In this document: piece by piece, positions 7,338 through 25,453 of the stretch | Position numbering within the stretch: the stretch's first letter is position 1 | Layout: each line of letters starts with the position of its first letter | Source of the DNA: a virus | Virus genome (UHGV): UHGV-0335882 | Direction: 5' to 3' (one strand) | Length of the DNA: 29,365 bases | The notes under the pieces: model-generated | Seen by the model: the letters and a program-made list of their open reading frames with translations, nothing else | Database searches by the model: none | What the model was told of the DNA's origin: nothing | Made by a program: the position numbers and the translations under genes

Positions 7338-7378
7338 GGACTCCTCCACAGAGAAACAATGGCCCCGAAGGGCCATGA

Positions 7379-8404
7379 TTACGCCAGTTGTACGGACACG
7401 AACTCATCAGGGTCAGCCAGCAGCATCAGCGGTGCTGACTGAATCATGGTGAACTCACGCGCCGGATCGCCGGTGGTCACCCAGTTTTTCGGGTAACGGG
7501 CAGAGGCGTTAATGCCTTCGAGCTGTGCGTCCGCATCCTGAATGCAGCCATAGGTGCGCAGACCGCGTGCCTGAGTGTTCCCCAGCACCATCGTGTTGTC
7601 CGGCAGGAAGTTCTTTTTGACGCCGTTTTCCACGTACTGTCCGGAATACACGACGATGGCCACATCGCCATACATCCCCTTATAGGACACCGCTTTACCC
7701 AGGTCTTTCACCGCTGTCTCCAGCTCGGAATTAGAACCACGACGGGTATCCAGCTTCTCCTTGACGGCTTTGAAGGAACGGAACAGCGCCCAGCCTTTCG
7801 GATCGAACACGATGATATTCACCACACCGCTGGCGTTCAGCGCGTAGGCTTCGATATCGTCGGTCGGGTCATACGTGGACTTGTCACGCTTGCTCCACTC
7901 CGTGCCGCCGGACTGCGTGATGTTATTCTCCTCACTGCGGCCCATATCCACCTCAACCGGATCGAAGGCTTCACCGGTCATGGTGTATTTGCCCTTAAGC
8001 ACGGCAGAAACTGCCTGCATCTCTTCGACCTGAGCAATGGCCAGCTCTTCGTCACGCATGTTCTGCATGATGATGCGACGGCGGCGGTAAGCCGGGTCCA
8101 CCAGATTCTGCGGATCTTCATCCGGCAGGCGACGCAGGGTCATCTGCGGATTCACTTCATGCTTCGGCTTGACATATCCCGGCGTAAATTCAGAGGTGGA
8201 GCCGCCACGGGAACGGATAACCTCACCGGAAACAATCGGCGAAACGTACAGCGCCATGTTTACCAGTCCCGGAATTTGTGAGAGATAGACTTTCTCCGTG
8301 GTGAAGGGATAGCTCTCACGGAAAAAGAGACGCAGAAACAGCGGATCAAACTTAAATTTCTGCTCATTTGCCGCCAGCAGCTGGGCGGTTGTGTACATCG
8401 ACAT
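7379..8404 (-). CDS. E: Major capsid protein E
   Basis: ORF matches lambda gpE (341 aa) from MSMYTTAQLLAANEQKFKFDPLFLRLFFRESYPF... Start set at the internal ATG (8404) corresponding to the lambda E start. Confidence 0.93.
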   Translation of the reverse strand: MSMYTTAQLLAANEQKFKFDPLFLRLFFRESYPFTTEKVYLSQIPGLVNMALYVSPIVSGEVIRSRGGSTSEFTPGYVKPKHEVNPQMTLRRLPDEDPQNLVDPAYRRRRIIMQNMRDEELAIAQVEEMQAVSAVLKGKYTMTGEAFDPVEVDMGRSEENNITQSGGTEWSKRDKSTYDPTDDIEAYALNASGVVNIIVFDPKGWALFRSFKAVKEKLDTRRGSNSELETAVKDLGKAVSYKGMYGDVAIVVYSGQYVENGVKKNFLPDNTMVLGNTQARGLRTYGCIQDADAQLEGINASARYPKNWVTTGDPAREFTMIQSAPLMLLADPDEFVSVQLA

Positions 8405-8413
8405 AAAAAAATC

Positions 8414-8438
8414 CCGTAAAAAAAGCCGCACAGGCGGC
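8414..8438 (-). terminator. Intrinsic-terminator-like hairpin between D and E (GCCGCCTGTGCGGC followed by T7 on the minus strand)
   Basis: GC-rich inverted repeat with a U-run on the coding (minus) strand in the D-E gap. Lies inside the late operon, so it would normally be read through under antitermination. Confidence 0.4.
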
Positions 8439-8459
8439 CTTTAGTGATGAAGGGTAAAG

Positions 8460-8792
8460 TTAAACGATGCTGATTGCCGTTCCGGCAAACGCGGTCCGTT
8501 TTTTCGTCTCGTCGCTGGCAGCCTCCGGCCAGAGCACATCCTCATAACGGAACGTGCCGGACTTGTAGAACGTCAGCGTGGTGCTGGTCTGGTCAGCAGC
8601 AACCGCAAGAATGCCAACGGCAGCACCGTCGGTGGTGCCATCCCACGCAACCAGCTTACGGCTGGAGGTGTCCAGCATCAGCGGGGTCATTGCAGGCGCT
8701 TTCGCACTCAATCCGCCGGGCGCGGTTGCGGTATGAGCCGGGTCACTGTTGCCCAGCGGCTGGTAATGGGTAAAGGTTTCTTTGCTCGTCAT
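8460..8792 (-). CDS. D: Capsid decoration protein D
   Basis: ORF matches lambda gpD ([40 protein letters not shown]...); start at the ATG corresponding to the lambda D start. Confidence 0.93.
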
Positions 8793-8801
8793 AAACATCC
8801 C

Positions 8802-9407
8802 TTACACTGGTGTGTTCAGCAAATCGTTAACGGCATCAGATGCCAGGTTACCTGCAGCCAGCGGTGCCGGTGCCCCCTGCATCAGACGATCCAGCGCAGT
8901 GTCACTGCGCGCCTGTGCACTCTGTGGTGCAACTGCCAGAATGCGGCGGGCCGTTTCCACGGTCATACCAGGGGTTTCGGCCAGCACGCGTGCCTGTTCT
9001 TCGCGTCCGTGAGCTTCCTCACAGTTGAGGATCCCCATAATGCGACTGTTTTCTGCCGCAACCGCTGCGGTGATCTGCGCGTTCACGTCCGGCTGCGCAG
9101 CGCTGGCGTTCTCGCCCTCCGTCGCTGGCACCACGCCAGTAACGTCAGCCTGCGAAGCAGTGGCTGAAACAGTTGTTGATTGAGTCTCTTTGGTCATTCG
9201 CCCTCCTGAGAGACGGGATTTACGTGCATCCAGTGCATCACGCATGACGGTGATCGCATCGGTACTGTTAACAAGTTCATCAGCCAGTCCGGCATCAATG
9301 GCCTCCTGACCGCTGTACACTGCAGCCTCGGTATCCAGCACAGCCTGCACGGACAGGCCGGTATATGCCGACACCTTCTGTGCAAACATCCGGCGGGTTG
9401 CATCCAT
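8802..9407 (-). CDS. Nu3: Scaffolding protein Nu3 (in-frame internal start within C)
   Basis: Internal ATG at 9407 gives a 201-aa product (MDATRRMFAQKVSAYTGLSVQ... to the C stop), the same length and arrangement as lambda Nu3 nested in the C frame. Confidence 0.75.
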   Translation of the reverse strand: MDATRRMFAQKVSAYTGLSVQAVLDTEAAVYSGQEAIDAGLADELVNSTDAITVMRDALDARKSRLSGGRMTKETQSTTVSATASQADVTGVVPATEGENASAAQPDVNAQITAAVAAENSRIMGILNCEEAHGREEQARVLAETPGMTVETARRILAVAPQSAQARSDTALDRLMQGAPAPLAAGNLASDAVNDLLNTPV

Positions 9408-10101
9408 CCGGGACTGCAGTGTTTCCCGGACATCATCCGGTAGATGGCTGTAGGGGTTGCCATCCACCTTATGGCTGCCGCTGTAAATCAGCGTGATTTC
9501 CACGCCCTGTTTCTCCAGCGCAGCACCGTAATTACTGTGAGCCATCATGACGCCGATGGAGCCTGTCCGGGCGGTCTGCGTGACCAGACGTCGGGAGGCG
9601 GCGCTGGCAAGCAACTGACCTGCACTGCAGTTCATGTCGTTGGCCAGCGCCCATACCGGCTTTATGTCACGCACACGGGCGATGATGTCAGCGCAGTCAA
9701 ATGCCCCTGCCACCATCCCGCCTGGCGTATCCATATCGAGCAGAATGCCGTCCACCATCGGGTCGCTGGCAGCCTGTTGCAGACGGGCGATAATGCCGTT
9801 GTAACCGGTCATCCCCGAATACGGCTGCAGCGCTCGCGTCCGACTGACCAGCGTGCCGGACACCGGCAGCACGGCGATGCCGTTCATGACCTGATAACTG
9901 CGGGCCTGTCGTGGTCCGTCATCATCAACGGATAACGCCAGCGCCGCGGGTGCCTCTCCGGCAGTCAGGCTGTCGCCGGATACCGCATCCGTCAGGCGGC
10001 TGATCCCAAGCTGGCCTGCAAGCGCACAAAAGAAAACCCGCGCATAGGCGGGTTCAAGCATCAGCGGCTCATTAAAGGCCATACTGGCAATATGCGGGAG
10101 A

Positions 10102-10121
<20 letters not shown>
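8802..10121 (-). CDS. C: Head protease/scaffold-processing protein C (GTG start)
   Basis: ORF matches lambda gpC (439 aa) from TAELRNLPHIASMAFNEPLMLEPAYARVFF... The position equivalent to the lambda start is GTG (10121..10119), preceded by AGGAGG, giving the same 20-nt B/C overlap as lambda. Confidence 0.85.
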
Positions 10122-13802
<3,681 letters not shown>

Positions 13803-13828
<26 letters not shown>

Positions 13829-14348
13829 TCAGCAACCCCGGTATCAGTTCATCCAGCGCGGCTGCTTTGTTCATGGCTTTGATGATATCCCGTTTCAGGA
13901 AATCAACATGTCGGTTTTCCAGTTCCGGAAAACGCCGCTGCACCGACAGGGGGATCCCGTCGAGAATACTGGCAATTTCACCTGCGATCCGCGACAGCAC
14001 GAAAGTACAGAATGCGGTTTCCACCACTTCAGCGGAGTCTCTGGCATTTTTCAGCTCCTGTGCGTCGGCCTGCGCACGCGTAAGTCGATGGCGTTCGTAC
14101 TCAATAGTCCCTGGCTGGAGATCTGTCTCGCTGGCCTGTCGCAGTTCTTCAACCTCCCGGCGCAGCTTTTCGTTCTCAATTTCAGCATCCCTTTCGGCAT
14201 ACCATTTTATGACGTCGGCAGAGTCATAAAGCACCTCATTACCCTTCCCACCGCCTCGCAGAACGGGCATTCCCTGCTCCTGCCAGTTCTGAATAGTACG
14301 GATACTCGCGCCGAAAATGTCAGCCAGCTGCTTTTTGTTGACTTCCAT
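13803..14348 (-). CDS. Nu1: Terminase small subunit Nu1
   Basis: 181-aa ORF (MEVNKKQLADIFGASIRTIQNWQEQGMPVLRGGGKGNEVLYDSADVIKWY...) matches lambda Nu1; overlaps the A start as in lambda. Confidence 0.95.
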
Positions 14349-14349
14349 T

Positions 14350-14525
14350 GTTCATTCCACGGACAAAAACAGAGAAAGGAAACGACAGAGGCCAAAAAGC
14401 CCGTTTTCAGCACCTGTCGTTTCCTTTCTTTTCAGGGAGTGTTTTAAATAAAAACATTAAGTTACGGCGAAGAAGAACGGAAACGCCTTAAACCGGAAAA
14501 TTTTCATAAATAGCGAAAACCCGCG
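14350..14525 (-). other. cosB, terminase (Nu1) binding region with R-type repeats
   Basis: Reverse complement reads GGGCGGCGACCTCGCGGGTTTTCGCTATTTATGAAAATTTTCCGGTTTAAGGCGTTTCCGTTCTTCTTCG..., near-identical to the lambda left end as recalled. Repeated CGTTTCC/GGAAACG cores at about 14388-14398, 14416-14426 and 14466-14483 resemble lambda R1-R3. Confidence 0.75.
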
Positions 14526-14537
14526 AGGTCGCCGCCC
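14526..14537 (-). other. cosN, 12-nt cohesive-end sequence (GGGCGGCGACCT on the minus strand)
   Basis: Exact lambda cohesive-end 12-mer read on the minus strand, immediately upstream of the cosB-Nu1 region. Confidence 0.85.
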
Positions 14538-14685
14538 CGTAACCTGTTGGATCGACGGAAAGGACCCGAAAACGAGAATAATTATCACTTACAGCAAGAA
14601 TCGAATCTGATCTATTATGGTGCTTGCTATTATGTGCCGGCACAAGTGCGTCGTTTACCGTCATTTCACACAGAGGCATCATCAA

Positions 14686-14937
14686 ATGAAAATCAGAAAT
14701 ATTCTCGCTATCTCCCTTGCGACATCATCCTTCAGTTGCCTGGCATTTAAATCCTCGCCCAATGTGCTACCAGGACCAACGAATCAACTAACTGCGGTAG
14801 AAAGTAAAATTATCGGACATTTTTATGCCCCACACAGTACATTACCCGGAACAACCATCACAGGGACATGTGACGCCTCCCCCGTCCCGGGATGCACCTG
14901 TCCGTTTTGTACTATGCTGCGTAGCCAAAACCGATAA
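14686..14937 (+). CDS. Small secreted protein of unknown function (83 aa, Cys-containing)
   Basis: ATG at 14686 with GAGG 9 nt upstream. N-terminus MKIRNILAISLATSSFSCLA has signal-peptide character; mature part contains a TGTCDASPVPGCTCPFC cysteine cluster. The track ORF (from 14617) extends further 5' without a ribosome-binding site. No recognised family. Confidence 0.5.
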   Translation: MKIRNILAISLATSSFSCLAFKSSPNVLPGPTNQLTAVESKIIGHFYAPHSTLPGTTITGTCDASPVPGCTCPFCTMLRSQNR

Positions 14938-14998
14938 CATCCGCATTTACCTGGTATTCCATGATGAGTTCACGCAGCGACTGATAGAGGAAGGAAAG

Positions 14999-15178
14999 AT
15001 GGTTAGTAAAAGCAAGGCGCATTGCCGCCGCATGCTGCAGGCATTGCAACAGACGAGAGCAGGTATTTTTGACCAGTTGGAAAACTGCCAGCATACTTTG
15101 CCCGAGTATATCGCCATCTCATCGGAAACCAGTGCAACTCTTATTCATCGGGTTCCACCAGAGAAAAAGAAGAAATGA
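14999..15178 (+). CDS. Small hypothetical protein (59 aa, basic C-terminus)
   Basis: ATG at 14999 preceded by a strong GAGGAAGGA Shine-Dalgarno; in frame with track ORF 14825..15178 but starting after the stop of the upstream gene. Function unknown. Confidence 0.35.
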   Translation: MVSKSKAHCRRMLQALQQTRAGIFDQLENCQHTLPEYIAISSETSATLIHRVPPEKKKK

Positions 15179-15184
15179 ACAGTG

Positions 15185-15209
15185 AGGCGTTGTGTGGCAT
15201 ACAACGCCT
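15185..15209. terminator. Hairpin between convergent genes (AGGCGTTGT / loop 7 nt / ACAACGCCT)
   Basis: 9-bp perfect inverted repeat located between the plus-strand ORF ending at 15178 and the minus-strand lipoprotein gene ending at 15301; followed by TCTTCC on the plus strand. Confidence 0.4.
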
Positions 15210-15300
15210 TCTTCCATCATTCCTCGTCAGCCATGACAAAAATATAACCGCTGGCTCTTTCATTTTTCTCCTGCTTCCAGCCCCTCTCTACCTGGAAGCA

Positions 15301-15627
15301 TCAAGGACGTGACGGCGTAAAGATAAATTGTCTCTTCACTCCCTGACAGGGGCGATTCTTTTCAAATCGCCATTTCGCCATGGCCTTCACCACTTCATCA
15401 CGAAACAAATTATGAGGCTCTGAGCGGAGAAAAACGATCCGTGTCACAGTCCCATCAGCACCAATATCGAACTTAACCTCAACCAGCCCCTTGATATAAT
15501 TTGCTGCAGCATATTCCGGATATCGTGGATACACCGTCACTAATTGCCGGGGCTCATCAGCTTTTTGCTGCGAGCATCCCACTGCCAGGACAGATAACAG
15601 AAAAAGTAGTAAAAGGCGTCTTTTCAT
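15301..15627 (-). CDS. Lipoprotein with TonB C-terminal-like domain (108 aa)
   Basis: Start at internal ATG (15627): MKRRLLLLFLLSVLAVGCSQQ is a lipoprotein signal with lipobox LAVGC. Remainder aligns with the E. coli TonB C-terminal domain as recalled (GLVEVKFDIGADGTV...LFRDEVVKAMAKWRFEKNRP vs GQVKVKFDVTPDGRV...MFEREVKNAMRRWRYEPGKP). Confidence 0.8.
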   Translation of the reverse strand: MKRRLLLLFLLSVLAVGCSQQKADEPRQLVTVYPRYPEYAAANYIKGLVEVKFDIGADGTVTRIVFLRSEPHNLFRDEVVKAMAKWRFEKNRPCQGVKRQFIFTPSRP

Positions 15628-16092
15628 TTTTATTCCTACGGGTCTTATTCTGACAATATATCCTGTGTTCCAGACTGCCACATCACCACATCCTGTGCCA
15701 TTATCTGACTCACATTACATACATCGCATCGGGATACAGTAGTAGCACTTTCTGTAATACAGCTTCCTGTTTCTTCCACCATCGCACCGGGATAAACCCG
15801 CGAATCATTAACGCGGTAAAAACCCGGTGTGCATCGTTTTTAATTATTCCCGCACACTCACGCAGAAGGAATTCCCCGTCGGGCTACGGTCATGGTTAAT
15901 GCGGGAATACGGCGACGATACAGCGCAGCTAAAAGGGTAATGGACGGATAGACCGGTTTATTTCATTCCACAGGATTCTGAGTGTCCCCAACTTCCTCCA
16001 ATAGTCTGAGCCCACCTGTGTAGTTTTAATTTTCATCAATCCATTTAACTATCGTTTAATTGTTGTCACATAGGATTCTGCCGTTTTTAACA

Positions 16093-16236
16093 ATGCAGGA
16101 TAATAAGATGAAAAAAATGTTGTTTTCTGCCGCTCTGAGTCTGTTGTCGGCATTCTGGCAATGCAATTTGGATAAAGCGGGGATTAAAAAGATAGAGGCG
16201 AGCCGGTCAGGTAGAAATGAATCAGGCTCAAAGTGA
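16093..16236 (+). pseudogene. 5' stump of a bor/iss-family lipoprotein gene (first ~15 codons conserved, then unrelated sequence to a stop)
   Basis: Translation MQDNKMKKMLFSAAL... matches the N-terminus of Iss/Bor-family proteins as recalled. The lipobox (LITGC) and the rest of the protein are missing; the frame runs into unrelated sequence and stops after 47 codons. Position and orientation match where bor sits relative to cos in lambda. Confidence 0.6.
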
Positions 16237-16528
16237 AGCGGAAAAGGTCTGTGGCACAAGCTGATGCAGCCATAATTACAGCCTGATGATTTGTGGAATG
16301 AAACATGTTGAACCTCCTTAATTGATGTTATTCGAGTGATGAAGGCATTCTGTCCTTCTATAGTGTCCAGTAAATCAAACAGGAAACTTGTCCAACGTGT
16401 TGGACAAGCCTCTCCATTAGTGAGTTGTATTGATCACAACTCTACAAAGAATTCATTACTGGGTAGATGAAAATAGTTTCACTATGAATGGAGGAGGCTA
16501 TGTCGGTGGCTTCTTCATTGGAGTACAT

Positions 16529-16879
16529 ATGCCCCCACGAATCCCACGCGCCTGCCGTAAGCGTGGATGTGCAGGTACAACCACAGACAGTTCTGGTTAC
16601 TGCGATAAACATCGTGGCGAAGGATGGGTACAGCATCAACGCGGACTGAGCCGCCACCAGCGTGGCTATGGCTCGAAATGGGATGCCATACGTGCGCGCA
16701 TACTGAAGCGTGATAATCATCTGTGTCAGAACTGCCTGCGCAATGGGAGAGCCGTTGAAGCCAGAACTGTGGACCACATCATTCCGAAAGCTCATGGTGG
16801 CACGGATGCAGACAGTAACCTGCAGAGTCTGTGCTGGCCCTGTCATAAAGCAAAAACAGCGCGCGAACGCATCAATTGA
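16529..16879 (+). CDS. HNH endonuclease (terminase-associated, 116 aa)
   Basis: C-terminal HNH motif (CQNCLRNGRAVEARTVDHIIPKAHGGTDADSNLQSLCWPCHKAKT) with Cys-rich N-terminal part. Start set at ATG 16529 with GGAG 5 nt upstream; the track ORF starts further 5' at a TTG. Sits directly upstream of the terminase genes, as in HK97-type cos phages. Confidence 0.85.
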   Translation: MPPRIPRACRKRGCAGTTTDSSGYCDKHRGEGWVQHQRGLSRHQRGYGSKWDAIRARILKRDNHLCQNCLRNGRAVEARTVDHIIPKAHGGTDADSNLQSLCWPCHKAKTARERIN

Positions 16880-17026
16880 TAACAGTTCCCATCTGTAGGG
16901 GAGGGGCAGGCCAAATCTCTGCAACCCTGGCTGCTCAGTACCGCCGCCTGACCTTTCCTCGCATCGCCGCAGGTTCGAAAACTTTTTTTTGGAATGTGAT
17001 TAAATGATTGATAGGTAAAACCGATT
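16880..17026 (+). other. Intergenic region between HNH and small terminase; candidate cos site of the HK97-type module
   Basis: 147-bp non-coding gap at the position where HK97-type phages carry cos. Contains GC-rich motifs (GGGGAGGGGCAGG; CCGCCGCCTGACC, the latter resembling the CGCCGCC core of lambda cosN). Exact cut site not determinable by eye. Confidence 0.35.
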
Positions 17027-17509
17027 ATGTCTGGACCCCCGAAAACCCCGCCACGCCTGCATTTGATACGAGGCAACCCCTCAAAGCGGCCAGTTAAAGA
17101 CCTCAAAAAAACCGCTAAAAAGGATGAAAAAGGTCTCCCTAAAATTCCGCAACATTTAGGGGCGCAGGGGAAGTACTGGTTCAGGCGAATGGCGGAAGAG
17201 CTGAATGCGGAAGGGATCATTTCTCAGCTTGATGCGCGTGCGCTTGAGCTACTGGTGGAAGCCTATACCGAATACCGGCATCACTGCGAAACACTCGATG
17301 TTGAGGGGTACACCTACCGCTCGAAAACGCAGAACGGTGATGTGCTGATTAAGGCACACCCGGCTGCTGCGATGAAAGCGGATGCCTGGAAGCGGATCCG
17401 GGCGATGCTTGCAGAATTTGGTATGTCACCGGCAAGCCGGGCAAAAGTAAATACCGCCGGACCGGATAATGTTGATCCGCTGGCAGAGCTTTTAAAAGCG
17501 AGAGACTGA
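17027..17509 (+). CDS. Terminase small subunit (P27 family)
   Basis: 160-aa ORF with basic N-terminus and the C-terminal FGMSPASRAKV motif typical of the P27 family; immediately upstream of and overlapping the large terminase. Confidence 0.9.
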   Translation: MSGPPKTPPRLHLIRGNPSKRPVKDLKKTAKKDEKGLPKIPQHLGAQGKYWFRRMAEELNAEGIISQLDARALELLVEAYTEYRHHCETLDVEGYTYRSKTQNGDVLIKAHPAAAMKADAWKRIRAMLAEFGMSPASRAKVNTAGPDNVDPLAELLKARD

Positions 17510-19266
17510 TGGCAAAAGTGGCTGACGGGATCCGCTACGCCGAACGTGTTGTTGCAGGAGAAATTGTTGCTGGCGAATTTGTCCGCCTGGCCTGCCAGCG
17601 TTTTCTTGATGATCTGAAGTACGGCGAAAAGCGGGGGATTTATTTCAGTGAACCCCGTGCGCAGCACATCCTGAATTTCTACAAATTTGTGCCTCATGTA
17701 AAAGGGGCACTGGCAGGCCAGCCCATTGAGTTGATGGACTGGCATGTATTTATCCTCATTAATATTTTTGGTTTTGTCATTCCGCTGGTCAATGAAGAAA
17801 CCGGGGAAGTTGTCATGCGCAGCGATGGCAGCGGACGTCCGGTGATGGTGCGCCGGTTCCGGACGGCGTACAACGAAGTCGCCCGTAAAAACGCAAAATC
17901 AACCCTGTCATCGGGTATCGGCCTGTATATGACGGGGGCAGATAGTGAAGGCGGAGCTGAGGTGTATTCAGCCGCAACCACGCGTGACCAGGCCAGAATC
18001 GTGTTTGAAGACGCCAAAAATATGGTCAGAAAAGCCCGGTCGACACTCGGGCGGTTGTTTGATTTCAACAAGCTGGCGATTTACCAGGAGCAGAGCGCAT
18101 CAAAATTTGAACCGCTTTCCTCGGATGCAAACAACCTGGACGGTCTGAACATCCACTGCGCCATTATTGATGAGCTGCATGCACATAAAACCCGCGACGT
18201 GTGGGACGTTCTGGAAACGGCAACCGGTGCCCGTCTGCAGTCCCTGTTATTTGGTATCACCACGGCTGGCTTTAACAAGGAAGGGATTTGTTACGAGCAG
18301 CGTGATTACGCCATCAAGGTATTGCGAGGCTATAACAGCGACGTGGAGGGCGCTGTAAAAGACGACTCTTACTTTGCGATCATTTACACGCTTGATGAGG
18401 GAGATGATCCGTTTGATGAAACGGTCTGGCAGAAAGCGAATCCTGGCCTGGGCATCTGTAAACGCTGGGATGATCTGCGTCGTCTGGCGAAAAAAGCGAA
18501 GGAGCAGGTCTCTGCGCGGGTGAATTTTTTTACCAAACACATGAATGTGTGGGTCACTGCCGAATCTGCCTGGATGGATATGATTAAGTGGGAGAAGTGC
18601 GAATACATTGCTCCACAACATGAGCTGAAAACATATCCCATGTGGGTCGGCGTCGACCTTGCTCATAAGATTGATATCTGTGCGGCGGCAAAACTCTGGC
18701 GAACCGATAACGGACATGTTCATGCTGATTTTAAATTCTGGCTTCCGGAAGGACGGCTGGAACGATGCTCGCGGCAGCAGGCAGAACTTTACCGGAAGTG
18801 GGCGGAGATGGATAAGCTCATCCTGACGGATGGTGATGTTATCGATCATGCTCAGATAAAAAGTGACTTACTGGAATGGATTGGCGGTGAAAACCTCAGG
18901 GAACTGGGATTTGACCCGTGGAGCGCAATGCAGTTCAGTCTGGCACTGGCTGAAGAAGGGATACCGCTGGTGGAGGTTCCGCAGACGGTCCGCAATCTGT
19001 CAGAGGCCATGAAGGAAACGGAATCACTGGTTTATGCCGGGCGTTTCCATCACAGCAATCATCCGGTCATGAACTGGATGATGTCTAACGTTACTGTAAA
19101 ACCGGACAAAAACGACAACATCTTCCCGAATAAATCCACGCCGGAAGCCAAAATCGACGGCCCTGTTGCGCTTTTTACAGCCATGAGCCGCTTTCTGGTA
19201 AATGGCGGGGGCGTGAATGACTTTCTGTCCACGCTTGATCCTGATGAGGACCTGTTAATTCTGTGA
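17509..19266 (+). CDS. Terminase large subunit
   Basis: 585-aa ORF; start overlaps the small-terminase stop (TGATG); size, position and sequence character consistent with HK97-type large terminase. Confidence 0.93.
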   Translation: MAKVADGIRYAERVVAGEIVAGEFVRLACQRFLDDLKYGEKRGIYFSEPRAQHILNFYKFVPHVKGALAGQPIELMDWHVFILINIFGFVIPLVNEETGEVVMRSDGSGRPVMVRRFRTAYNEVARKNAKSTLSSGIGLYMTGADSEGGAEVYSAATTRDQARIVFEDAKNMVRKARSTLGRLFDFNKLAIYQEQSASKFEPLSSDANNLDGLNIHCAIIDELHAHKTRDVWDVLETATGARLQSLLFGITTAGFNKEGICYEQRDYAIKVLRGYNSDVEGAVKDDSYFAIIYTLDEGDDPFDETVWQKANPGLGICKRWDDLRRLAKKAKEQVSARVNFFTKHMNVWVTAESAWMDMIKWEKCEYIAPQHELKTYPMWVGVDLAHKIDICAAAKLWRTDNGHVHADFKFWLPEGRLERCSRQQAELYRKWAEMDKLILTDGDVIDHAQIKSDLLEWIGGENLRELGFDPWSAMQFSLALAEEGIPLVEVPQTVRNLSEAMKETESLVYAGRFHHSNHPVMNWMMSNVTVKPDKNDNIFPNKSTPEAKIDGPVALFTAMSRFLVNGGGVNDFLSTLDPDEDLLIL

Positions 19267-19283
19267 AACAGCTTATTACTGAT

Positions 19284-19424
19284 ATGACCGGGCTGATCGG
19301 TTTCGGTCTGCTCACTGCTGGCGTTTATCTGTATGCAGGTCTGCCAGCGTCTCTGATGCTGTCTGGCTGTTTGTTGCTGCTTTATGCACTGGTGGTGTCC
19401 ATGAGGAGAAAACATGCTTCTTGA
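19284..19424 (+). CDS. Small hydrophobic ORF (46 aa) between terminase and portal
   Basis: MTGLIGFGLLTAGVYLYAGLPASLMLSGCLLLLYALVVSMRRKHAS, a single predicted transmembrane helix; no clear Shine-Dalgarno; overlaps the portal start. Speculative. Confidence 0.25.
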   Translation: MTGLIGFGLLTAGVYLYAGLPASLMLSGCLLLLYALVVSMRRKHAS

Positions 19425-20640
19425 TGCTCTGTTTCGCAGTGAGCCTCTGGAAAATCCCTCGGTTCCGGTAACCGGAGAGGCCGCAGAGACGGATAATATT
19501 TTTGCCCGGGATGTGTATGTCAGTCCGGAAACGTCCATGAGGCTGGCTGCTGTCTATGCCTGTATTTATGTTATTTCATCCAGTGTGGCTCAGATGCCCC
19601 TGCATGTGATGCGAAAAACGAATGAGCATGTTCAGCCGGCACGCGATCACCCGTTGTTCTGGCTCGTTCATGATGAACCGAATGCCTGGCAGACCAGCTA
19701 TAAGTGGCGGGAACTGAAGCAGCGTCATGTGCTGGGGTGGGGCAATGGTTATACGTGGGTGAAACGTAATCGTCGTGGCGAGGTTACCAGTCTTGAATGC
19801 TGTATGCCATGGGAAACCACGTTACTTAACACCGGAGGGCGTCATACCTACGGTGTGTATAACGAAGAGGGTGCATTTGCGGTAAGTCCGGACGACATGA
19901 TCCATATCAGGGCGCTGGGAAACAATCAGAAAATGGGACTGAGTCCGATCATGCAGCATGCTGAAACCATTGGTATGGGAATGAGTGGTCAGCAGTATAC
20001 CAGTGCTTTTTTTAACGGTAATGCCCGTCCTGCCGGGATTATTTCTGTGAAAAATGAACTGAACGAACAGAGTTGGAGCAGGCTCAAGAATATGTGGCAG
20101 CGGGCGGTGACAGCGCTTCGCAGCCAGGAAAATAAAACCATGTTGCTGCCTGCGCAACTGGATTACCGCGCTCTGACAGTTTCTCCGGTGGATGCTCAGA
20201 TCATTGATATGACCAAGCTGAACCGGTCGATGATTGCCGGGATTTTTAATGTCCCGGCGCACATGATTAATGACCTGGAAAAAGCCACATTTTCGAATAT
20301 TACGCAGCAGGCGATTCAGTTTGTTCGCTACACGATGATGCCCTGGGTTGCGAACTGGGAGCAGGAGCTTAACCGTCGCCTGTTTACCCGTACAGAACGG
20401 GCTGCCGGGTATTACGTTCGTTTCAACCTCACGGGGTTGCTCCGTGGGACCCCACAGGAGCGTGCGCAGTTCTATCACTTTGCCATTACAGATGGCTGGA
20501 TGAGTCGGAATGAAGCCAGGGCATTTGAGGATATGAACCCGGTTGACGGTCTGGATGAAATGCTGGTCAGCGTAAATGCAGCAAATCCGTTGAATAACTT
20601 TAAAGATACGAAAGGCAAAGAGGAAAAGAACGATGAATGA
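19414..20640 (+). CDS. Portal protein (HK97 family)
   Basis: 408-aa ORF following the large terminase, GAGGAG Shine-Dalgarno 5 nt upstream; length and position typical of HK97-family portal. Confidence 0.93.
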   Translation: MLLDALFRSEPLENPSVPVTGEAAETDNIFARDVYVSPETSMRLAAVYACIYVISSSVAQMPLHVMRKTNEHVQPARDHPLFWLVHDEPNAWQTSYKWRELKQRHVLGWGNGYTWVKRNRRGEVTSLECCMPWETTLLNTGGRHTYGVYNEEGAFAVSPDDMIHIRALGNNQKMGLSPIMQHAETIGMGMSGQQYTSAFFNGNARPAGIISVKNELNEQSWSRLKNMWQRAVTALRSQENKTMLLPAQLDYRALTVSPVDAQIIDMTKLNRSMIAGIFNVPAHMINDLEKATFSNITQQAIQFVRYTMMPWVANWEQELNRRLFTRTERAAGYYVRFNLTGLLRGTPQERAQFYHFAITDGWMSRNEARAFEDMNPVDGLDEMLVSVNAANPLNNFKDTKGKEEKNDE

Positions 20641-21232
20641 CCGTGAAACGCGCTGTTACAGCGGGGAGGTGCGGGCGGAACAATATGATAATGCCCCGAC
20701 CCACATTCTGGGCTATGGCTCGGTATTTAACAGTCGTTCAGAACCTCTGTGGGGATTTCGTGAAATCATCAAGCCGGGGGCTTTTGATGATGTACTGAAT
20801 GATGATGTACGTGGCTTGTTTAATCATGATCCTAATTTCATTCTCGGACGAAGTTCTGCCGGCACGTTGTCATTGTCGGTGGATGAACGCGGTTTACGTT
20901 ATGACATTGTTGCACCGGATACTCCGACTATTTGTGACCTGGTGCTATCTCCAATGTTGCGTGGTGACATTAATCAGTCCTCGTTCGCGTTTCGTGTCGC
21001 CCGTGACGGAGAGAGCTGGTATGAAGACGACGAGGGGATTGTTATCCGGGAAATCACGCGCATTTCTCGTCTGTATGACGTCAGCCCGGTGACATATCCG
21101 GCCTATCAGGACGCAGACTCTGGTGTCCGCTCAATGAAAGCCTGGCAGGAAGCGCGGGCGAGTGGTGCGCTGAAGAAAGCTGTTAACGAACGAATGGCGC
21201 GTGAGCGTCTTTTGACCCTTCTTAATGCATAA
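20633..21232 (+). CDS. Prohead maturation protease (HK97 family)
   Basis: 199-aa ORF overlapping the portal stop (ATGAATGA), located between portal and major capsid genes; size and position typical of HK97-family prohead protease. Confidence 0.9.
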   Translation: MNDRETRCYSGEVRAEQYDNAPTHILGYGSVFNSRSEPLWGFREIIKPGAFDDVLNDDVRGLFNHDPNFILGRSSAGTLSLSVDERGLRYDIVAPDTPTICDLVLSPMLRGDINQSSFAFRVARDGESWYEDDEGIVIREITRISRLYDVSPVTYPAYQDADSGVRSMKAWQEARASGALKKAVNERMARERLLTLLNA

Positions 21233-21246
21233 GGATACTACTGACG

Positions 21247-22464
21247 ATGAAACTTCATGAGATGAAGCAAAAACGAAACACCATTGCAAAGGATATGCGT
21301 GCACTGCATGAAAAAATTGGTGATAACGCATGGACTGATGAGCAACGGGCAGAGTGGAACAGGGCGAAAGCTGAGCTGGATGCGCTGGATGAGCAAATCG
21401 CCCGTGAAGAAGAGTTGCGCCGTCAGGATCAGGCATATGTGGATGAGTCCGGGCCGGAAGAGCGCCAGAATAATGAGGCGGAGAACGGGAAAAAGGCGGT
21501 GGAAGAGAAGCGCGCTGCGGCATTTAACCGTTTTCTGCGTGCCGGATTTGCAGAACTGAATGCTGAAGAGCGTAATCTGATGCGTGAACTGCGGGCTCAG
21601 AGTGTAACAACGGATTCTCAGGGCGGATATACGGTGCCCACGCAGATGCGTAACAAAATCATTGACACCATGAAGGCTTATGGCGGGATTGCCAGTGTGG
21701 CGCAACTTCTGACCACATCAACCGGGCAGGATATCACCTGGTCAACGTCTGATGGCACGACTGAAGAGGGCGAACTGCTGGCGGAAAATACAGCCGCAAC
21801 GGAACAGGATGTGACGTTCGGGACCGCTATTCTGGGGGCTAAAAAGCTGTCATCAAAAATAATTCGTGTGTCCAATGAGCTGCTCCAGGACAGTGGGGTG
21901 GATATTGAATCTTATCTGGCAAACCGTATTGCCCAGCGTATTGGTCGTGGAGAGGCAAAATATCTGGTTCAGGGGACCGGAACGGGATCACCGTTACAGC
22001 CAAAAGGGCTGGCAGCGTCGGTGACGGGAACCATCCAGACTGTAGCCTCTGCCGCTTTCACCTGGAAAGAAATGAATGCCCTGAAACATGCCATTGATCC
22101 GGCATATCGTGGTGGGCCGAAATACCGCTGGGCATTCAATGATGCCACATTGCAGACTATTGAAGAGATGGAGGATGGACAGAAACGCCCGTTATGGCTG
22201 CCGGATATTGCAGGCGGTACGCCGGCTACTGTGCTGGGGATCCCTTATGTTATTGATCAGGCTATTGACGGGATTGGTACCGGAAAAAAATTCATTTTCC
22301 TGGGGGATTTCAACCGCTTTATCATTCGCCGCGTTACTTATATGGAACTGAAACGTCTGGTTGAGCGTTATGCTGAGTTTGATCAGGTGGCATTTCTGGC
22401 TTTCCATCGTTTTGACTGTGTGCTGGAAGATGTGGCAGCCATCAAGGCGCTCACTGGCAAATAA
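21247..22464 (+). CDS. Major capsid protein (HK97 fold, with N-terminal delta/scaffold domain)
   Basis: 405-aa ORF; N-terminal ~100 aa is charged and coiled-coil-like (EQRAEWNRAKAELDALDEQIAREEELRRQ), typical of a delta domain removed by the adjacent protease; followed by an intrinsic terminator. Confidence 0.93.
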   Translation: MKLHEMKQKRNTIAKDMRALHEKIGDNAWTDEQRAEWNRAKAELDALDEQIAREEELRRQDQAYVDESGPEERQNNEAENGKKAVEEKRAAAFNRFLRAGFAELNAEERNLMRELRAQSVTTDSQGGYTVPTQMRNKIIDTMKAYGGIASVAQLLTTSTGQDITWSTSDGTTEEGELLAENTAATEQDVTFGTAILGAKKLSSKIIRVSNELLQDSGVDIESYLANRIAQRIGRGEAKYLVQGTGTGSPLQPKGLAASVTGTIQTVASAAFTWKEMNALKHAIDPAYRGGPKYRWAFNDATLQTIEEMEDGQKRPLWLPDIAGGTPATVLGIPYVIDQAIDGIGTGKKFIFLGDFNRFIIRRVTYMELKRLVERYAEFDQVAFLAFHRFDCVLEDVAAIKALTGK

Positions 22465-22485
22465 CCACTCGTTGTTCAGTTACAG

Positions 22486-22507
22486 ACCGCGCCGACGCGG
22501 TTTTTTT
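22486..22507 (+). terminator. Rho-independent terminator after the major capsid gene (ACCGCG-CCGA-CGCGGT followed by T7)
   Basis: 6-bp GC-rich stem, 4-nt loop and a 7-T run, 22 nt downstream of the capsid stop codon. Confidence 0.6.
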
Positions 22508-22540
22508 ATGCCCGCACAGTGTTGCGGGCAGGAGTTTCTG

Positions 22541-22858
22541 ATGGCAGCAATAGTGGAAAAACTCAGGGCGCAGTGCCGTATTGATACAGATGATGCAACT
22601 GATGATGAGTTACTGATGCTGTATTTCCGGGCTGCCTGCCGCAAGGCAGAAAATTTTATCAACCGTAAGCTTTATGAGGAGACGGTGCCGGAAGGTGATC
22701 CTGAAGGGGTGCTTATAGCTGATGATGTTTTGCTGGCGCTCATGTTGCTGGTCGGGCACTGGTACGAAAACCGGGAAAATTCCTCAGATGTCAGCAAGGC
22801 ACCAGTCCCGTTTGGTTTTTCTTCTCTGCTGGAGCCTTATCGTTTTATTCCTTTGTAG
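22541..22858 (+). CDS. Head-tail connector protein (gp6-like)
   Basis: Start at ATG 22541 with GGAG 6 nt upstream (track ORF extends 5' through the terminator). Product MAAIVEKLRAQCRIDTDDATDDELLMLYFRAACRKAENFINRKL... resembles the gp6-like connector family. Confidence 0.75.
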   Translation: MAAIVEKLRAQCRIDTDDATDDELLMLYFRAACRKAENFINRKLYEETVPEGDPEGVLIADDVLLALMLLVGHWYENRENSSDVSKAPVPFGFSSLLEPYRFIPL

Positions 22859-22866
22859 GAGGAGAC

Positions 22867-23205
22867 ATGCAGGCGGGCAGATTACGTGATCGCGTAATTA
22901 TTCTGAATGTCACCACCGCCCGCTCTCCGTCAGGGCATCCGGTGGAGACGGTGACGGAGGGAGCTACCGTATGGGCAGAAGTTAAGGGTATCAGCGGGAG
23001 GGAGATAATCTCAGGCGGAGCAGAAACCGCTCAGGCTACGGTCAGAGTCTGGATGAGATTCCGGCGCGATGTGACAGCGACTTCACGTCTGAAAGTGCTG
23101 ACCGGTGCATTTAAAGGGGCCATTCTGGGTATAGAAGGTCCACCAATACCGGATGCACGCGCTACCCGGCTTGAAATACTCTGCAGCCTGAAGGGGAATG
23201 TGTGA
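22867..23205 (+). CDS. Head closure / head-tail joining protein (gp7-like)
   Basis: 112-aa ORF (MQAGRLRDRVIIL...WAEVKGISGREI...VRVWMRFRRDV...) with the pattern typical of head closure proteins; position after the connector gene. Confidence 0.75.
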   Translation: MQAGRLRDRVIILNVTTARSPSGHPVETVTEGATVWAEVKGISGREIISGGAETAQATVRVWMRFRRDVTATSRLKVLTGAFKGAILGIEGPPIPDARATRLEILCSLKGNV

Positions 23206-23651
23206 TGGATTTCAGTCTTGATTTTTCCGGCCTGGCGGATATTGCACGGGATTTGGAGACGCTCAGCAGGGCAGAAAACAATAAGGTTCTGCGCGATGCC
23301 ACCCGTGCCGGTGCTGAAGTTATGCGGGATGCAGTTGTTGAACGTGCGCCGGAGCGAACCGGGAAACTGAAGAAAAATGTGGTTGTTCTCACTCAGCGTT
23401 CAAAGCGTCGGGGGGAAATTATCTCGGGTGTCCACATTCGCGGACGGAACCTGCGAACCGGAAACAGTGATAACAGCATGAAAGCCAGCGATCCCCGAAA
23501 TGCATTTTACTGGCGCTTTGTGGAGCTGGGAACGATAAACATGCCCGCGCATCCATTCATTCGCCCGGCTTTCGATACGACAGAGGAACTGGCAGCACGG
23601 ATTGCCATACAGCGAATGAATCAGGCTATTGATGAGGTCTTAAGTAAATGA
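23202..23651 (+). CDS. HK97 gp10-family neck/tail-completion protein
   Basis: 149-aa ORF containing RFVELGTINMPAHPFIRPAFD, the conserved motif of the HK97 gp10 family; 4-nt overlap with the upstream gene. Confidence 0.75.
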   Translation: MMDFSLDFSGLADIARDLETLSRAENNKVLRDATRAGAEVMRDAVVERAPERTGKLKKNVVVLTQRSKRRGEIISGVHIRGRNLRTGNSDNSMKASDPRNAFYWRFVELGTINMPAHPFIRPAFDTTEELAARIAIQRMNQAIDEVLSK

Positions 23652-23992
23652 GAGAGGCCACACTGTATTCCCTGTTGTCTCAGCTGGCCGGAGGACAGGT
23701 TTATCCTTATGTGGTCCCACTGACGGAGGGAAAGCCTGCGGTATCTCCGCCGTGGCTGGTGTTTTCTGTGGTGTCTGACACGGCATCTGATGTGCTTGAT
23801 GGGCAGGCTGAATCCAGAATTACCGTGCAGATCGATGTCTGGGCGACAGTACCTGATGACGCAGATAATATTCGTGAGCAGGCGCTTGATGCGGTAAGAA
23901 AACTGGCACCCTCCGTTATTTCTAAAACGCAGGGTTATGATCCTGACTCCCGTCTGAGCAGAGCCACGCTTGAATTTCAGGTAATAGCCTGA
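23648..23992 (+). CDS. Tail terminator/completion protein (gp11-like)
   Basis: 114-aa ORF directly upstream of the major tail gene with 4-nt overlap to the preceding gene; assigned by position and size. Confidence 0.65.
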   Translation: MREATLYSLLSQLAGGQVYPYVVPLTEGKPAVSPPWLVFSVVSDTASDVLDGQAESRITVQIDVWATVPDDADNIREQALDAVRKLAPSVISKTQGYDPDSRLSRATLEFQVIA

Positions 23993-24012
23993 GGTCATTA
24001 ATGATTTTACCC

Positions 24013-24036
24013 ACCCGCCGCTGGCGGGTTTTTTTA
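24013..24036 (+). terminator. Terminator-like hairpin before the major tail gene (ACCCGCC-GCT-GGCGGGT followed by T7)
   Basis: 7-bp GC stem with a 3-nt loop followed by a T-run, in the 60-nt gap before the major tail protein start codon. Confidence 0.5.
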
Positions 24037-24052
24037 TTTTCAGGAGACGAGT

Positions 24053-24757
24053 ATGTCCTCTAATTTTGAGCGTTCGCAACTGACGAAAATTATGATTTCG
24101 TCTGCACCGGTAACAGCAGAAACCCTGGATTCTGCCAGCTATCTTGGCCTGAGCTGTACAATCAAAGAGGTGCAGTTTACCGCAGGACAAAAGCAGGATA
24201 TTGATGTCACCACGCTGTGTTCTGTTGAGCAGGAAAATATTAACGGTCTTGGTGCCGCGTCAGAGATTTCCATGTCAGGCAACTTTTATCTGAATGCTGC
24301 CCAGAACGCGTTGCGCAGTGCCTATGACAATGACACCACGTATGGCTTTAAAGTTATTTTTCCGTCAGGCAACGGATTTACCTTTATGGCAGAGGTGCGT
24401 CAGCATACCTGGTCTGCAGGAACCAATGGTGTTGTGGCTGCAACGTTTTCCTTGCGCCTGAAAGGTAAACCTGTGCTGACGACAGAGCCGCTGAAAGTGA
24501 AGGCCGATTTAAAAAGCACGCTGCGGGTTGCTTCCGGAGCGAAACTTGAAATGGCGGTTGAGGCTGCGGGTGGTGTGCCGCCTTATTCTTATGTCTGGAA
24601 GAAAGGTGGTTCTCCTGTTTCCGGACAGACGGCGGCAACGTTCAGTAAGGCATCGGCAGTATCCGGTGATGCGGGTGCATATACCTGCGAGATTTCTGAT
24701 TCAGCAAGCCCGGTTAACAAAGTGACCTCCACTTCCTGCACTGTAACCGTCAGTTAA
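24053..24757 (+). CDS. Major tail protein with C-terminal Ig-like domain
   Basis: 234-aa ORF following the neck genes with a GGAG ribosome-binding site. C-terminal ~85 aa (…GGVPPYSYVWKKGGSPVSGQTAATFSKASAVSGDAGAYTCEISDSASPVNKVTSTSCTVTVS) has immunoglobulin-like sequence character. Confidence 0.8.
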   Translation: MSSNFERSQLTKIMISSAPVTAETLDSASYLGLSCTIKEVQFTAGQKQDIDVTTLCSVEQENINGLGAASEISMSGNFYLNAAQNALRSAYDNDTTYGFKVIFPSGNGFTFMAEVRQHTWSAGTNGVVAATFSLRLKGKPVLTTEPLKVKADLKSTLRVASGAKLEMAVEAAGGVPPYSYVWKKGGSPVSGQTAATFSKASAVSGDAGAYTCEISDSASPVNKVTSTSCTVTVS

Positions 24758-24771
24758 TGAGGATGGATGTG

Positions 24772-25143
24772 ATGACTAAAAATATCCGTAATCTGGCACT
24801 GGCAACGATGTCGGGGTTTCGCCATAAAACCGTTGATGTGCCTGAATGGGAGGGAGCAACGGTTGTGTTACGGGAACCTTCTGCAGAAGCCTGGTTGCGC
24901 TGGCAGGAGATCGTTAAAGCAAAAGATGATGAGACACCGTTATCCGTTGCGGAGCGCGCCCGCCGAAATCTGGAGGCAGATGTTGAACTGTTCATTGATG
25001 TTCTGTGTGATACCGGACTGCAACCCGTATTTTCAGAGGATGATCGTGAACAGGTGATTGCCGTGTATGGCCCGGTGCATGCGCGGCTTCTTCGGCAGTC
25101 TCTGGAACTGATCAGTGATGCCGGCGAGGTTAAAAAAAAGTAG
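24772..25143 (+). CDS. Tail assembly chaperone (gpG-like)
   Basis: ORF between major tail and tape measure genes, acidic, ending …DAGEVKKK. Start at ATG 24772 with GAGGA 8 nt upstream; an alternative ATG at 24757 overlaps the upstream stop. Confidence 0.75.
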   Translation: MTKNIRNLALATMSGFRHKTVDVPEWEGATVVLREPSAEAWLRWQEIVKAKDDETPLSVAERARRNLEADVELFIDVLCDTGLQPVFSEDDREQVIAVYGPVHARLLRQSLELISDAGEVKKK

Positions 25144-25445
25144 CGCTTCCGGGGATGCGTTTTCTGATGATGCTGGCGCTCAGGATGGGGCGCACATTGT
25201 CAGAGTTACGCCGGGAAATGTCCGCATCAGAAATCATGATGTGGGCAGAATTTGACAGGTTCAGCCCGCTGGGGGACGAACGGGCTGATATCCGGGCTGC
25301 CCAGATTGTTTCAGCTGTTTACGGTGCGCAGGGGGTCAAAGTGCCACTGAATGATGCGCTTCTTCAGTGGGAGAAGGAGCAGACAGAAGGCGTATCAGAT
25401 CCATTTGCCGGACTGGAAAACGCGCTTTTAATAGTGTCTCAGTGA
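24772..25445 (+). CDS. Predicted tail chaperone frameshift fusion (gpGT-like), -1 shift at A AAA AAG
   Basis: Downstream ORF (…MRFLMMLALRMGRTLSELRREMSASEIMMWAEF…) is in the -1 frame and has no separate ribosome-binding site; slippery heptamer A AAA AAG sits at the end of the upstream chaperone frame. Confidence 0.6.
25134..25140 (+). other. Putative -1 programmed frameshift slippery heptamer A AAA AAG
   Basis: AAA (25135-25137) and AAG (25138-25140) are the last two sense codons of the chaperone zero frame; the -1 frame continues open for 101 codons to the stop at 25443-25445. Confidence 0.6.
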
Positions 25446-25453
25446 GTCAACAT

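What the first reader, a model, noticed from the sequence alone, without database searches (positions are those of the whole stretch)
16093..16236. Truncated bor/iss-family gene marks the junction between the two modules
The plus-strand ORF begins MQDNKMKKMLFSAAL, the recalled N-terminus of Iss/Bor-family lipoproteins, with an AGGA ribosome-binding site. After about 15 codons the sequence departs from the family: no lipobox, and 32 unrelated codons before a stop. In lambda, bor sits about 1.7 kb from cos on the strand opposite the late genes, which matches this position and orientation relative to cosN at 14526-14537. The stump therefore looks like the right-arm edge of the lambda-type module, with a breakpoint near 16140-16165 where lysis genes would be expected and unrelated DNA leading to the HNH gene follows instead.
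Basis: partly seen in the sequence, partly recalled or inferred. Interest (0 to 1): 0.55.

Follow-up and report, generated by a model that had tools for sequence, protein, structure and literature searches.

The report
Truncated iss gene at prophage junction
A dead 5' stump of the phage serum-resistance gene iss/bor sits at a one-off blunt join between the late-gene arms of two well-known E. coli ST131 prophages; it is an ordinary gene remnant, and the only oddity is that this join appears nowhere else.

Summary
The ORF at 16093-16236 starts with the iss/bor upstream region, ribosome-binding site and first 15 codons. This stretch is 100% identical to phage 21 and to ST131 prophage "A". Identity stops at 16137|16138.

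From 16138 the DNA is 100% identical to a second ST131 prophage, "B" (HK97/SfIV-type: HNH, small and large terminase). The 32 "unrelated" codons are the 3' relic of an SfIV-type LysC/Rz1 o-spanin gene, read in frame by chance. The 47-aa product has no Bor domain and no lipobox, so it is a pseudogene fusion.

- Native prophage B has its own intact iss on the opposite strand, 135 bp left of the breakpoint.
- The join is blunt, with no microhomology. It is absent from 5,426 complete E. coli genomes and from the phage, plasmid, IMG/VR, JGI metagenome and GTDB collections.
- In ten ST131 genomes A and B lie about 888 kb apart. Their orientation means one deletion or one inversion cannot make this join.

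It is therefore not a natural mosaic boundary. It is either a private illegitimate rearrangement or a sequencing or assembly artefact, and reads are needed to decide. Low interest.

The parts
15991..16092 (+). iss/bor upstream (promoter-bearing) region of prophage A; part of the conserved iss moron
   Evidence: 100% identical to phage 21 and ST131 prophage A. Homology to the inverted iss module of prophage B starts at 15991. No sigma-70 consensus was found by the simple scan.
16097..16100 (+). AGGA ribosome-binding site serving ATG 16108
   Evidence: Corresponds to the annotated RBS of phage 21 bor, 7 nt before the CDS start.
16093..16137 (+). iss/bor 5' stump: 15 codons from ATG 16093, or 10 codons from the annotated ATG 16108
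   Evidence: Identical to phage 21 and ST131 iss up to ...GCCGCTCTG; native genes continue GCAATGCTT.... No Lambda_Bor Pfam hit for the fusion, whereas intact iss of prophage A scores 1.2e-30.
16021..16137 (.). 117-nt stretch identical, in inverted orientation, to prophage B's own iss 5' region (part of a 170-nt exact inverted repeat between A and B)
   Evidence: Exact-match analysis of A (L009) against B (L007).
16137..16138 (.). Blunt junction between prophage A DNA and prophage B DNA, with no microhomology
   Evidence: Megablast hits split at query positions 238/239. A reads ...CTCTG|GCAATG and B reads ...ATGTC|AGTCTG. No match to the junction in any collection.
16138..16236 (+). 3' relic of an SfIV-type LysC/Rz1 o-spanin gene (32 codons plus TGA), in frame with the stump by chance
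   Evidence: The same 32 aa end the native 46-aa ORF called 'Rz1 lytic protein' (P0001, 669 contigs) and match the C-terminus of SfIV gp53. SfIV gp53 hits Pfam LysC at 3.3e-15; the fusion hits only at E = 0.11, below cutoff.
16155..16165 (+). 11-nt TCTGGCAATGC, identical to iss codons 14-18; lies 17 nt inside the prophage B side of the junction
   Evidence: Read directly from the sequences. A crossover here would give a different sequence from the one observed, so the match is unexplained.
16529..16879 (+). HNH endonuclease gene of prophage B
   Evidence: Pfam HNH 1.9e-16; RefSeq annotation.
17027..19266 (+). P27-family small terminase (17027-17509) and large terminase (17509-19266) of prophage B
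   Evidence: 100% identical to annotated ST131 genes.
15301..15681 (-). TonB C-terminal-domain moron of prophage A, between cos and iss
   Evidence: Pfam TonB_C 1.1e-12; annotated in phage 21 and ST131.
14526..14537 (-). lambda-type cosN (GGGCGGCGACCT) of prophage A
   Evidence: Sequence read, and agreement with the phage 21 right end.
11903..14348 (-). lambda-type terminase genes of prophage A: gpA 11903-13828 and Nu1/NohD 13803-14348
   Evidence: ORFs; RefSeq annotation of the identical DNA.

Best explanation
The ORF is an accidental, non-functional in-frame fusion. Its 5' part is the upstream region, RBS and first 15 codons of iss from the lambda/phage-21-type ST131 prophage A, which lies next to sitABCD. 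Its 3' part is the last 32 codons of a LysC/Rz1 o-spanin relic that precedes the HNH-terminase genes of the HK97/SfIV-type ST131 prophage B. If translated, the peptide would be a truncated signal sequence without a lipobox, followed by a charged tail. It has no Bor domain. One blunt, non-homologous join at 16137|16138 created the fusion. That join is recent (both sides 100% identical to ST131) and private to the source. It is not a natural phage-module boundary. My committed reading, at about 50%, is that the join physically existed in the sequenced DNA as an illegitimate recombination. The simplest viable form is a circular copy of prophage B, opened 135 bp upstream of its own iss and inserted into codon 15/16 of iss of prophage A. 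A tandem-duplication junction of about 888 kb is the alternative form. Shown: the anatomy, the parent sequences, the blunt breakpoint, its uniqueness and its topology. Inferred: that the join is physical, and how it arose.
For: Parent sequences: 1-16137 is 100% identical to prophage A and 16138-29365 is 100% identical to prophage B of ST131 genomes. Breakpoint and lack of microhomology. Spanin relic. No Bor domain or lipobox. Topology: in 10 ST131 genomes A and B are 887-890 kb apart and oriented so that the join is of head-to-tail (duplication, circle or insertion) type. Evidence that the join is physical rather than a concatenation of contigs: the left end of the window lies exactly 70 nt beyond the first A/B mismatch. 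The right end lies exactly 70 nt beyond a common C/T polymorphism of lambdoid L genes. This is what a k = 71 de Bruijn contig would show, and such an assembler cannot invent junction k-mers. In addition, none of 62 IMG/VR contigs carrying this part of prophage B starts at the breakpoint. Genuine draft contigs start inside the iss repeat instead, e.g. L066 and L070, and natural iss-module boundaries lie 10-20 nt away.
Against: The junction is absent from 5,426 complete E. coli genomes (at least 148 carry prophage B at 99% or better), and from the phage, plasmid, IMG/VR, JGI metagenome and GTDB representative collections. The fusion ORF and the antisense ORF across the junction are not on record among 153 billion gene positions. 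No fusion protein was found. The predicted reciprocal junction was not found. Blunt joins without microhomology are uncommon in vivo in E. coli. Both breakpoints lie within about 150 nt of the two inverted iss copies but out of register, which no standard mechanism predicts. The k = 71 argument for the right end needs a third prophage with the T-variant L gene. EC958 does not have one in Phi1, Phi2 or Phi4. It exists in other strains that carry prophage B, such as SCEC020023.
Confidence: 0.5

Rival explanations
1. The join is an artefact. Two ST131 assembly segments, the A late arm and the B late arm, each run from the tail-gene repeat to the iss repeat. They were concatenated or mis-joined without Ns, or a chimeric read or clone was assembled. 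The stump then has no biological existence as a fusion.
For: Each half spans exactly the unique DNA between two repeat families: tail genes L/K at the outer ends and the iss module at the inner ends. A documented precedent exists: the ST131 NA114 'complete' genome is a pseudo-molecule of concatenated Velvet contigs in which prophage fragments are junked together (PMC4134206). An IMG/VR 78-kb contig (genome 651053022) shows such a blunt join, a gpJ fragment abutting prophage B 38 nt inside the iss repeat. The window's junction is seen nowhere else. The topology would otherwise require a duplication or an insertion.
Against: The inner ends do not look like natural contig ends. The A part runs 117 nt into the 170-nt exact repeat, and the B part starts 47 nt outside it. 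No single k explains both. No IMG/VR contig starts at that position. No de Bruijn path, overlap merge or homologous chimera reproduces the sequence. A random ligation chimera would place both breakpoints this close to iss only about 1 time in 10,000, by my estimate.
Confidence: 0.38
2. The junction is an established natural mosaic boundary of a single hybrid phage or prophage lineage, with the lambda-type right arm fused to an HK97-type packaging module. This is the strong form of the first reader's view.
For: Lambdoid phages are mosaic. The iss module is itself a moron with recurrent boundaries. Prophage B already shows an older iss insertion that truncated a LysC/Rz1 gene.
Against: No other genome or contig has this junction. 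Both flanks are 100% identical to two separate resident ST131 prophages. The product has two divergent packaging and late arms, with no early or lysis genes between them, which is not a viable phage layout.
Confidence: 0.05
3. The 47-aa ORF is a genuine, selected small protein, for example a membrane peptide expressed from the iss promoter.
For: The upstream region and RBS are intact. The N-terminus MKKMLFSAALSLLSAFW is hydrophobic.
Against: No homologue covers both halves among 5.8 billion protein clusters. There is no exact match in the gene-position index. Both halves are fragments of other genes.
Confidence: 0.02

Closest known systems
Bor/Iss outer-membrane lipoproteins (lambda Bor, phage 21 Bor, E. 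coli Iss; Pfam PF06291 Lambda_Bor)
   Same: The upstream region, RBS and first 15 (10 annotated) codons are identical. The position is the same as in phage 21, 1.57 kb from cos on the strand opposite the late genes.
   Different: Only the signal-peptide n-region and half of the h-region remain. The lipobox Cys and the whole Lambda_Bor domain (residues 24-100) are missing.
LysC/Rz1-type o-spanin of SfIV-like phages (Pfam PF23793), and the 46-aa 'Rz1 lytic protein' relic ORF of ST131 prophage B
   Same: The last 32 codons and the stop are identical to the native relic ORF, and about 77-85% identical to the SfIV gp53 C-terminus in the same frame.
   Different: The N-terminal 14 aa of the native relic are replaced by Iss residues. 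Neither the relic nor the fusion has the lipobox or the proline-rich part of a working o-spanin.
Resident prophages of E. coli ST131 (EC958, JJ1886 and similar strains): the sitABCD-adjacent lambda-type defective prophage and the HK97-type HNH/P27-terminase prophage
   Same: Both halves of the window are 100% identical to them.
   Different: In complete genomes they are about 888 kb apart and each has an intact iss. Here their late arms abut back to back.
Concatenated-contig pseudo-molecules such as E. coli NA114 (Forde et al. 2014, PMC4134206)
   Same: These show blunt, homology-free abutment of ST131 prophage fragments that end at repeats. A real example is seen in IMG/VR contig 651053022_000004.
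   Different: The window's inner ends do not sit where de Bruijn contig ends would. The window's outer ends look like true k = 71 contig ends.

Membership tests
Bor/Iss lipoprotein family (PF06291) | Nucleotide or protein homology to bor/iss | tested here: met
   238 nt are 100% identical to phage 21 across the upstream region and the first 45 coding nt. Homology covers the 5' end only.
Bor/Iss lipoprotein family (PF06291) | Lambda_Bor domain (the mature protein) | tested here: not met
   The fusion ORF has no PF06291 hit. Intact iss of prophage A hits at 1.2e-30 over residues 24-100.
Bor/Iss lipoprotein family (PF06291) | Lipoprotein signal peptide with a lipobox Cys | tested here: not met
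   Native Iss reads ...AMLITGC. The fusion reads ...SLLSAFWQC, with no [LVI][ASTVI][GAS]C motif.
Bor/Iss lipoprotein family (PF06291) | Moron position between the lysis genes and cos, on the strand opposite the late genes | tested here: met
   ATG 16108 lies 1,570 nt from the cos end (14538), as in phage 21. The lysis-gene side is missing.
LysC/Rz1-like o-spanin (PF23793) | Profile match at or above the curated threshold | tested here: not met
   E = 0.11, 12.8 bits against a cutoff of 27; only profile positions 43-68 of 69 are matched.
LysC/Rz1-like o-spanin (PF23793) | Gene embedded in or overlapping an Rz/i-spanin gene of a lysis cassette | tested here: not met
   No holin, endolysin or Rz gene lies upstream in the window. 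In native prophage B the relic is already cut off by the iss moron.
HK97-type HNH + terminase packaging module | HNH endonuclease gene immediately upstream of the small and large terminase genes | tested here: met
   HNH Pfam 1.9e-16 at 16529-16879, followed by P27-family TerS and TerL.
Natural lambdoid mosaic (module-exchange) boundary | The same junction recurs in independent genomes or phages | tested here: not met
   0 of 5,426 E. coli genomes, and none in the phage, plasmid, IMG/VR, JGI and GTDB collections. The native prophage B flank is present in 61-62 IMG/VR contigs, which serves as a positive control.
Homologous-recombination product between the two iss copies | Crossover in register within shared sequence, leaving an intact hybrid iss | tested here: not met
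   The iss copies are inverted relative to the join. The breakpoint is 117 nt inside the exact repeat on the A side and 47 nt outside it on the B side.

The most novel reading that the evidence does not exclude
The join is a real in vivo event. An excised, circular copy of the HK97-type ST131 prophage re-entered the chromosome by integrase-independent, homology-independent recombination, inside the iss gene of a different, defective prophage and right next to an inverted copy of the same gene. Alternatively, an ~888-kb tandem duplication spanning the terminus formed at these points. Either would hint at an aberrant recombination outcome favoured by synapsis of inverted iss modules.
Probability: 0.4. 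Interest if true: 0.3.

Novelty: already known. Interest (0 to 1): 0.12.

Why it matters
It matters mainly as a caution. The window should not be read as one hybrid phage with two packaging systems, and the stump should not be annotated as Iss or as a virulence-gene hit. If the junction is physical, it is a private structural variant of an ST131 strain that inactivates one of its two iss copies and relocates or duplicates a prophage arm. That would be of modest interest for prophage-driven genome plasticity. If it is an artefact, it flags a mis-joined contig in a public assembly.

Tried and rejected
- **Homologous crossover between the two iss copies:** rejected. The copies are inverted relative to the join, and the product would keep an intact iss.
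- **Crossover or inversion at the 11-nt repeat** (TCTGGCAATGC and its inverted copy GCATTGCCAGA), or at TCTG/CAGA: rejected. The predicted junction sequences differ from the observed one.
- **Single deletion or single inversion from the canonical ST131 layout:** rejected on topology in 10 genomes.
- **Breakpoint equals a natural iss-moron boundary:** rejected. Natural boundaries are at L007 3981-3991 and SfIV homology starts at L001 2980 (equivalent to L007 3980), not at L007 4001.
- **The A-side end is a de Bruijn edge end with k = 117:** not supported. The B side would then have to start 164 nt earlier.
- **k = 31 (Logan-type) unitig:** rejected. A 30-nt internal inverted repeat lies inside the window.
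- **Looking for the source contig:** exact look-ups of the fusion ORF (three start choices) and of the antisense 67-aa ORF found nothing.
- **Looking for the third L-gene copy** that would complete the k = 71 argument, in EC958 Phi1, Phi2 and Phi4: not found there.
- Several comparisons therefore had to be done with DNA alignment or by re-fetching loci.

Full report
**What is there.** The + strand ORF at 16093-16236 encodes MQDNKMKKMLFSAAL followed by SLLSAFWQCNLDKAGIKKIEASRSGRNESGSK and a stop. A 651-nt query across it splits cleanly in every database.
- Window 15900-16137 matches the bor/iss start region of lambdoid phages. It is 100% identical to phage 21 over 238 nt (E = 3e-121).
- Window 16138-16550 matches the DNA upstream of the HNH gene of an HK97/SfIV-type prophage. 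It is 100% identical in many E. coli genomes and 78-86% identical in Shigella phage SfIV.
- No record covers both parts.

In phage 21 the gene continues ...GCCGCTCTG|GCAATGCTT. In the native HK97-type prophage the sequence left of 16138 is ...GAATGTC|AGTCTGTTG. The join is therefore blunt, with no shared base on either side.

**Details of the stump.**
- AGGA at 16097-16100 is the annotated RBS for ATG 16108 (MKKML), the start used in phage 21 and in RefSeq iss. The stump keeps 10 annotated codons, or 15 counted from the upstream in-frame ATG.
- The fusion has no Lambda_Bor hit. Intact iss of the parent prophage scores 1.2e-30, with the domain on residues 24-100.
- The lipobox (LITGC) is lost.

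**The "unrelated" 32 codons.** They are the C-terminus of a LysC/Rz1-type o-spanin.
- The same 32 residues end a 46-aa ORF, MDAQPIGGSQDLNVSLLSAFWQC...SGSK. This ORF is named 'Rz1 lytic protein' in NCBI records and occurs on 669 contigs.
- They align in frame with the end of SfIV gp53, which hits Pfam LysC at 3.3e-15.
- In the native prophage this ORF is already a relic. SfIV homology begins only at L001 2980, immediately after an inserted iss moron.

**The two parents.**
- Window 1-16137 is 100% identical to the lambda/21-type defective prophage next to sitABCD in ST131 genomes, here called prophage A. It carries tail genes, head genes, gpA, Nu1, cos, a TonB_C moron and iss.
- Window 16138-29365 is 100% identical to a second ST131 prophage, here called prophage B. 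It carries HNH, a P27-family TerS, TerL, portal, HK97 protease and capsid, and tail genes.
- Native prophage B has its own intact iss on the opposite strand, with its ATG 135 bp left of the breakpoint.
- The iss modules of A and B are inverted repeats: 905 bp at 92.7% identity, including a 170-nt exact run. The junction lies 117 nt into that run on the A side and 47 nt outside it on the B side.

**Uniqueness.** The junction was not found in any collection searched.
- It is absent from 5,426 complete E. coli genomes, INPHARED phages, PLSDB plasmids, IMG/VR, JGI metagenome contigs and GTDB representative genomes.
- As a positive control, the native prophage B flank is present in 61-62 IMG/VR contigs, all with the canonical left side.
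- The fusion ORF, with three possible starts, and the antisense ORF across the junction are not on record.
- A protein search found only the native relic and Iss fragments.
- The predicted reciprocal junction was not found.

**Topology.** Ten ST131 complete genomes were compared: 4/0, JJ1886, JJ1887, JJ2434, Ecol_656, M24, M45, M70, OV24 and DP033. In all of them the two breakpoints are 887-890 kb apart. Both parts lie in the same orientation relative to the window, with the A end lying after the B start. The join is thus of head-to-tail type. It corresponds to a tandem-duplication junction, a circle junction, or one end of an inserted copy. One deletion or one inversion cannot produce it. Homologous exchange between the iss copies would give an intact hybrid iss and the opposite orientation of prophage B.

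**Real or artefact?** I could not settle this.

Evidence for an artefact:
- The two halves are exactly the unique stretches between the tail-gene repeats and the iss repeat.
- There is a published precedent. The ST131 NA114 genome is a pseudo-molecule of concatenated Velvet contigs, with prophage fragments junked together (PMC4134206).
- I found such a blunt join in IMG/VR contig 651053022_000004, where a gpJ fragment abuts prophage B 38 nt inside the iss repeat.

Evidence against an artefact:
- The inner ends are not where contig ends fall. Real draft contigs of prophage B start inside the repeat, and none of 62 starts at the breakpoint.
- The outer ends look like genuine k = 71 de Bruijn ends. 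The left end is 70 nt past the first A/B mismatch. The right end is 70 nt past a common C/T polymorphism of lambdoid L genes. A de Bruijn assembler cannot create junction k-mers that are not in the reads.
- The right-end argument needs a third L-gene copy. I could not show one in EC958. It does exist in other strains that carry prophage B.

A viable single-event biological model is insertion of a circular copy of prophage B, opened at L007 4000|4001, into codon 15/16 of iss of prophage A. I put a physical join at about 50%, an artefact at about 38%, and the remaining readings at about 7% together.

**Unexplained.** Both breakpoints lie within about 150 nt of the two inverted iss copies, yet out of register. 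An 11-nt match to iss codons 14-18 sits 17 nt inside the prophage B side, but it was not used as the crossover point.

**Verdict.** The feature is an ordinary pseudogene stump fused to a spanin relic. Both components are known sequences. Only the junction is new, and its biological reality is unproven. Interest is low.

Noticed in passing
window 16097-16110: The AGGA Shine-Dalgarno lies inside codons 2-3 of the MQDNK reading, 7 nt before ATG 16108. The 97-aa MKKML start used for phage 21 Bor and RefSeq Iss is therefore the likely true start, rather than the historical 102-aa MQDNK start.
   Followed up: partly
L001 2980-3098 (native prophage B), equivalent to window 16138-16236 plus about 20 nt to the left: The widely annotated 46-aa 'Rz1 lytic protein' of this prophage (669 contigs) is itself a relic. 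It is the C-terminal ~35 aa of an SfIV-type LysC/Rz1 o-spanin, cut off by insertion of the iss moron. The prophage's working spanin (rzoD) lies further upstream.
   Followed up: partly
window 5571-5578 and about 5287: The window carries the empty 8-bp target site where strain DP033 has ISCro1 in the major tail protein gene. Strain B36 has a 39-bp tandem duplication in the same gene after window position ~5287. Many other ST131 genomes have ISEc23 or ISEc52 within this prophage.
   Followed up: partly
window 16383-16412: A perfect 13-bp-stem palindrome (GAAACTTGTCCAAC GT GTTGGACAAGCCTC region) lies between the spanin relic and the HNH gene. The scan scored it as terminator-like on the - strand. 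It is conserved at 100% in native prophage B.
   Followed up: no
window 799-828 versus 29335-29364, and both window ends: A 30-nt exact inverted repeat comes from the two prophages' homologous tail gene L copies. The window starts 70 nt beyond the first A/B mismatch in gene K. It ends 70 nt beyond a common C/T polymorphism in gene L. This pattern is expected for a k = 71 de Bruijn contig.
   Followed up: partly
L035 760-790 and L081 1320-1340 (IMG/VR contig IMGVR_UViG_651053022_000004, 78 kb): This public 'viral contig' contains blunt abutments of ST131 prophage fragments: a gpJ fragment joined to the iss upstream region of prophage B, and an iss gene with about 80 nt missing internally. It looks like a concatenated-contig pseudo-molecule of the NA114 type.
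   Followed up: partly
window 15301-15681 (- strand): A TonB C-terminal-domain protein gene (Pfam 1.1e-12) lies between cos and iss. It is a moron shared with phage 21, and its function in the lysogen is unknown.
   Followed up: no
L165 (E. coli SCEC020023, 3804287-3822476): A lambda-type prophage organised like prophage A carries a tail gene L that is almost identical to prophage B's L gene. This shows that tail-gene modules are exchanged between the two prophage types in other lineages.
   Followed up: no
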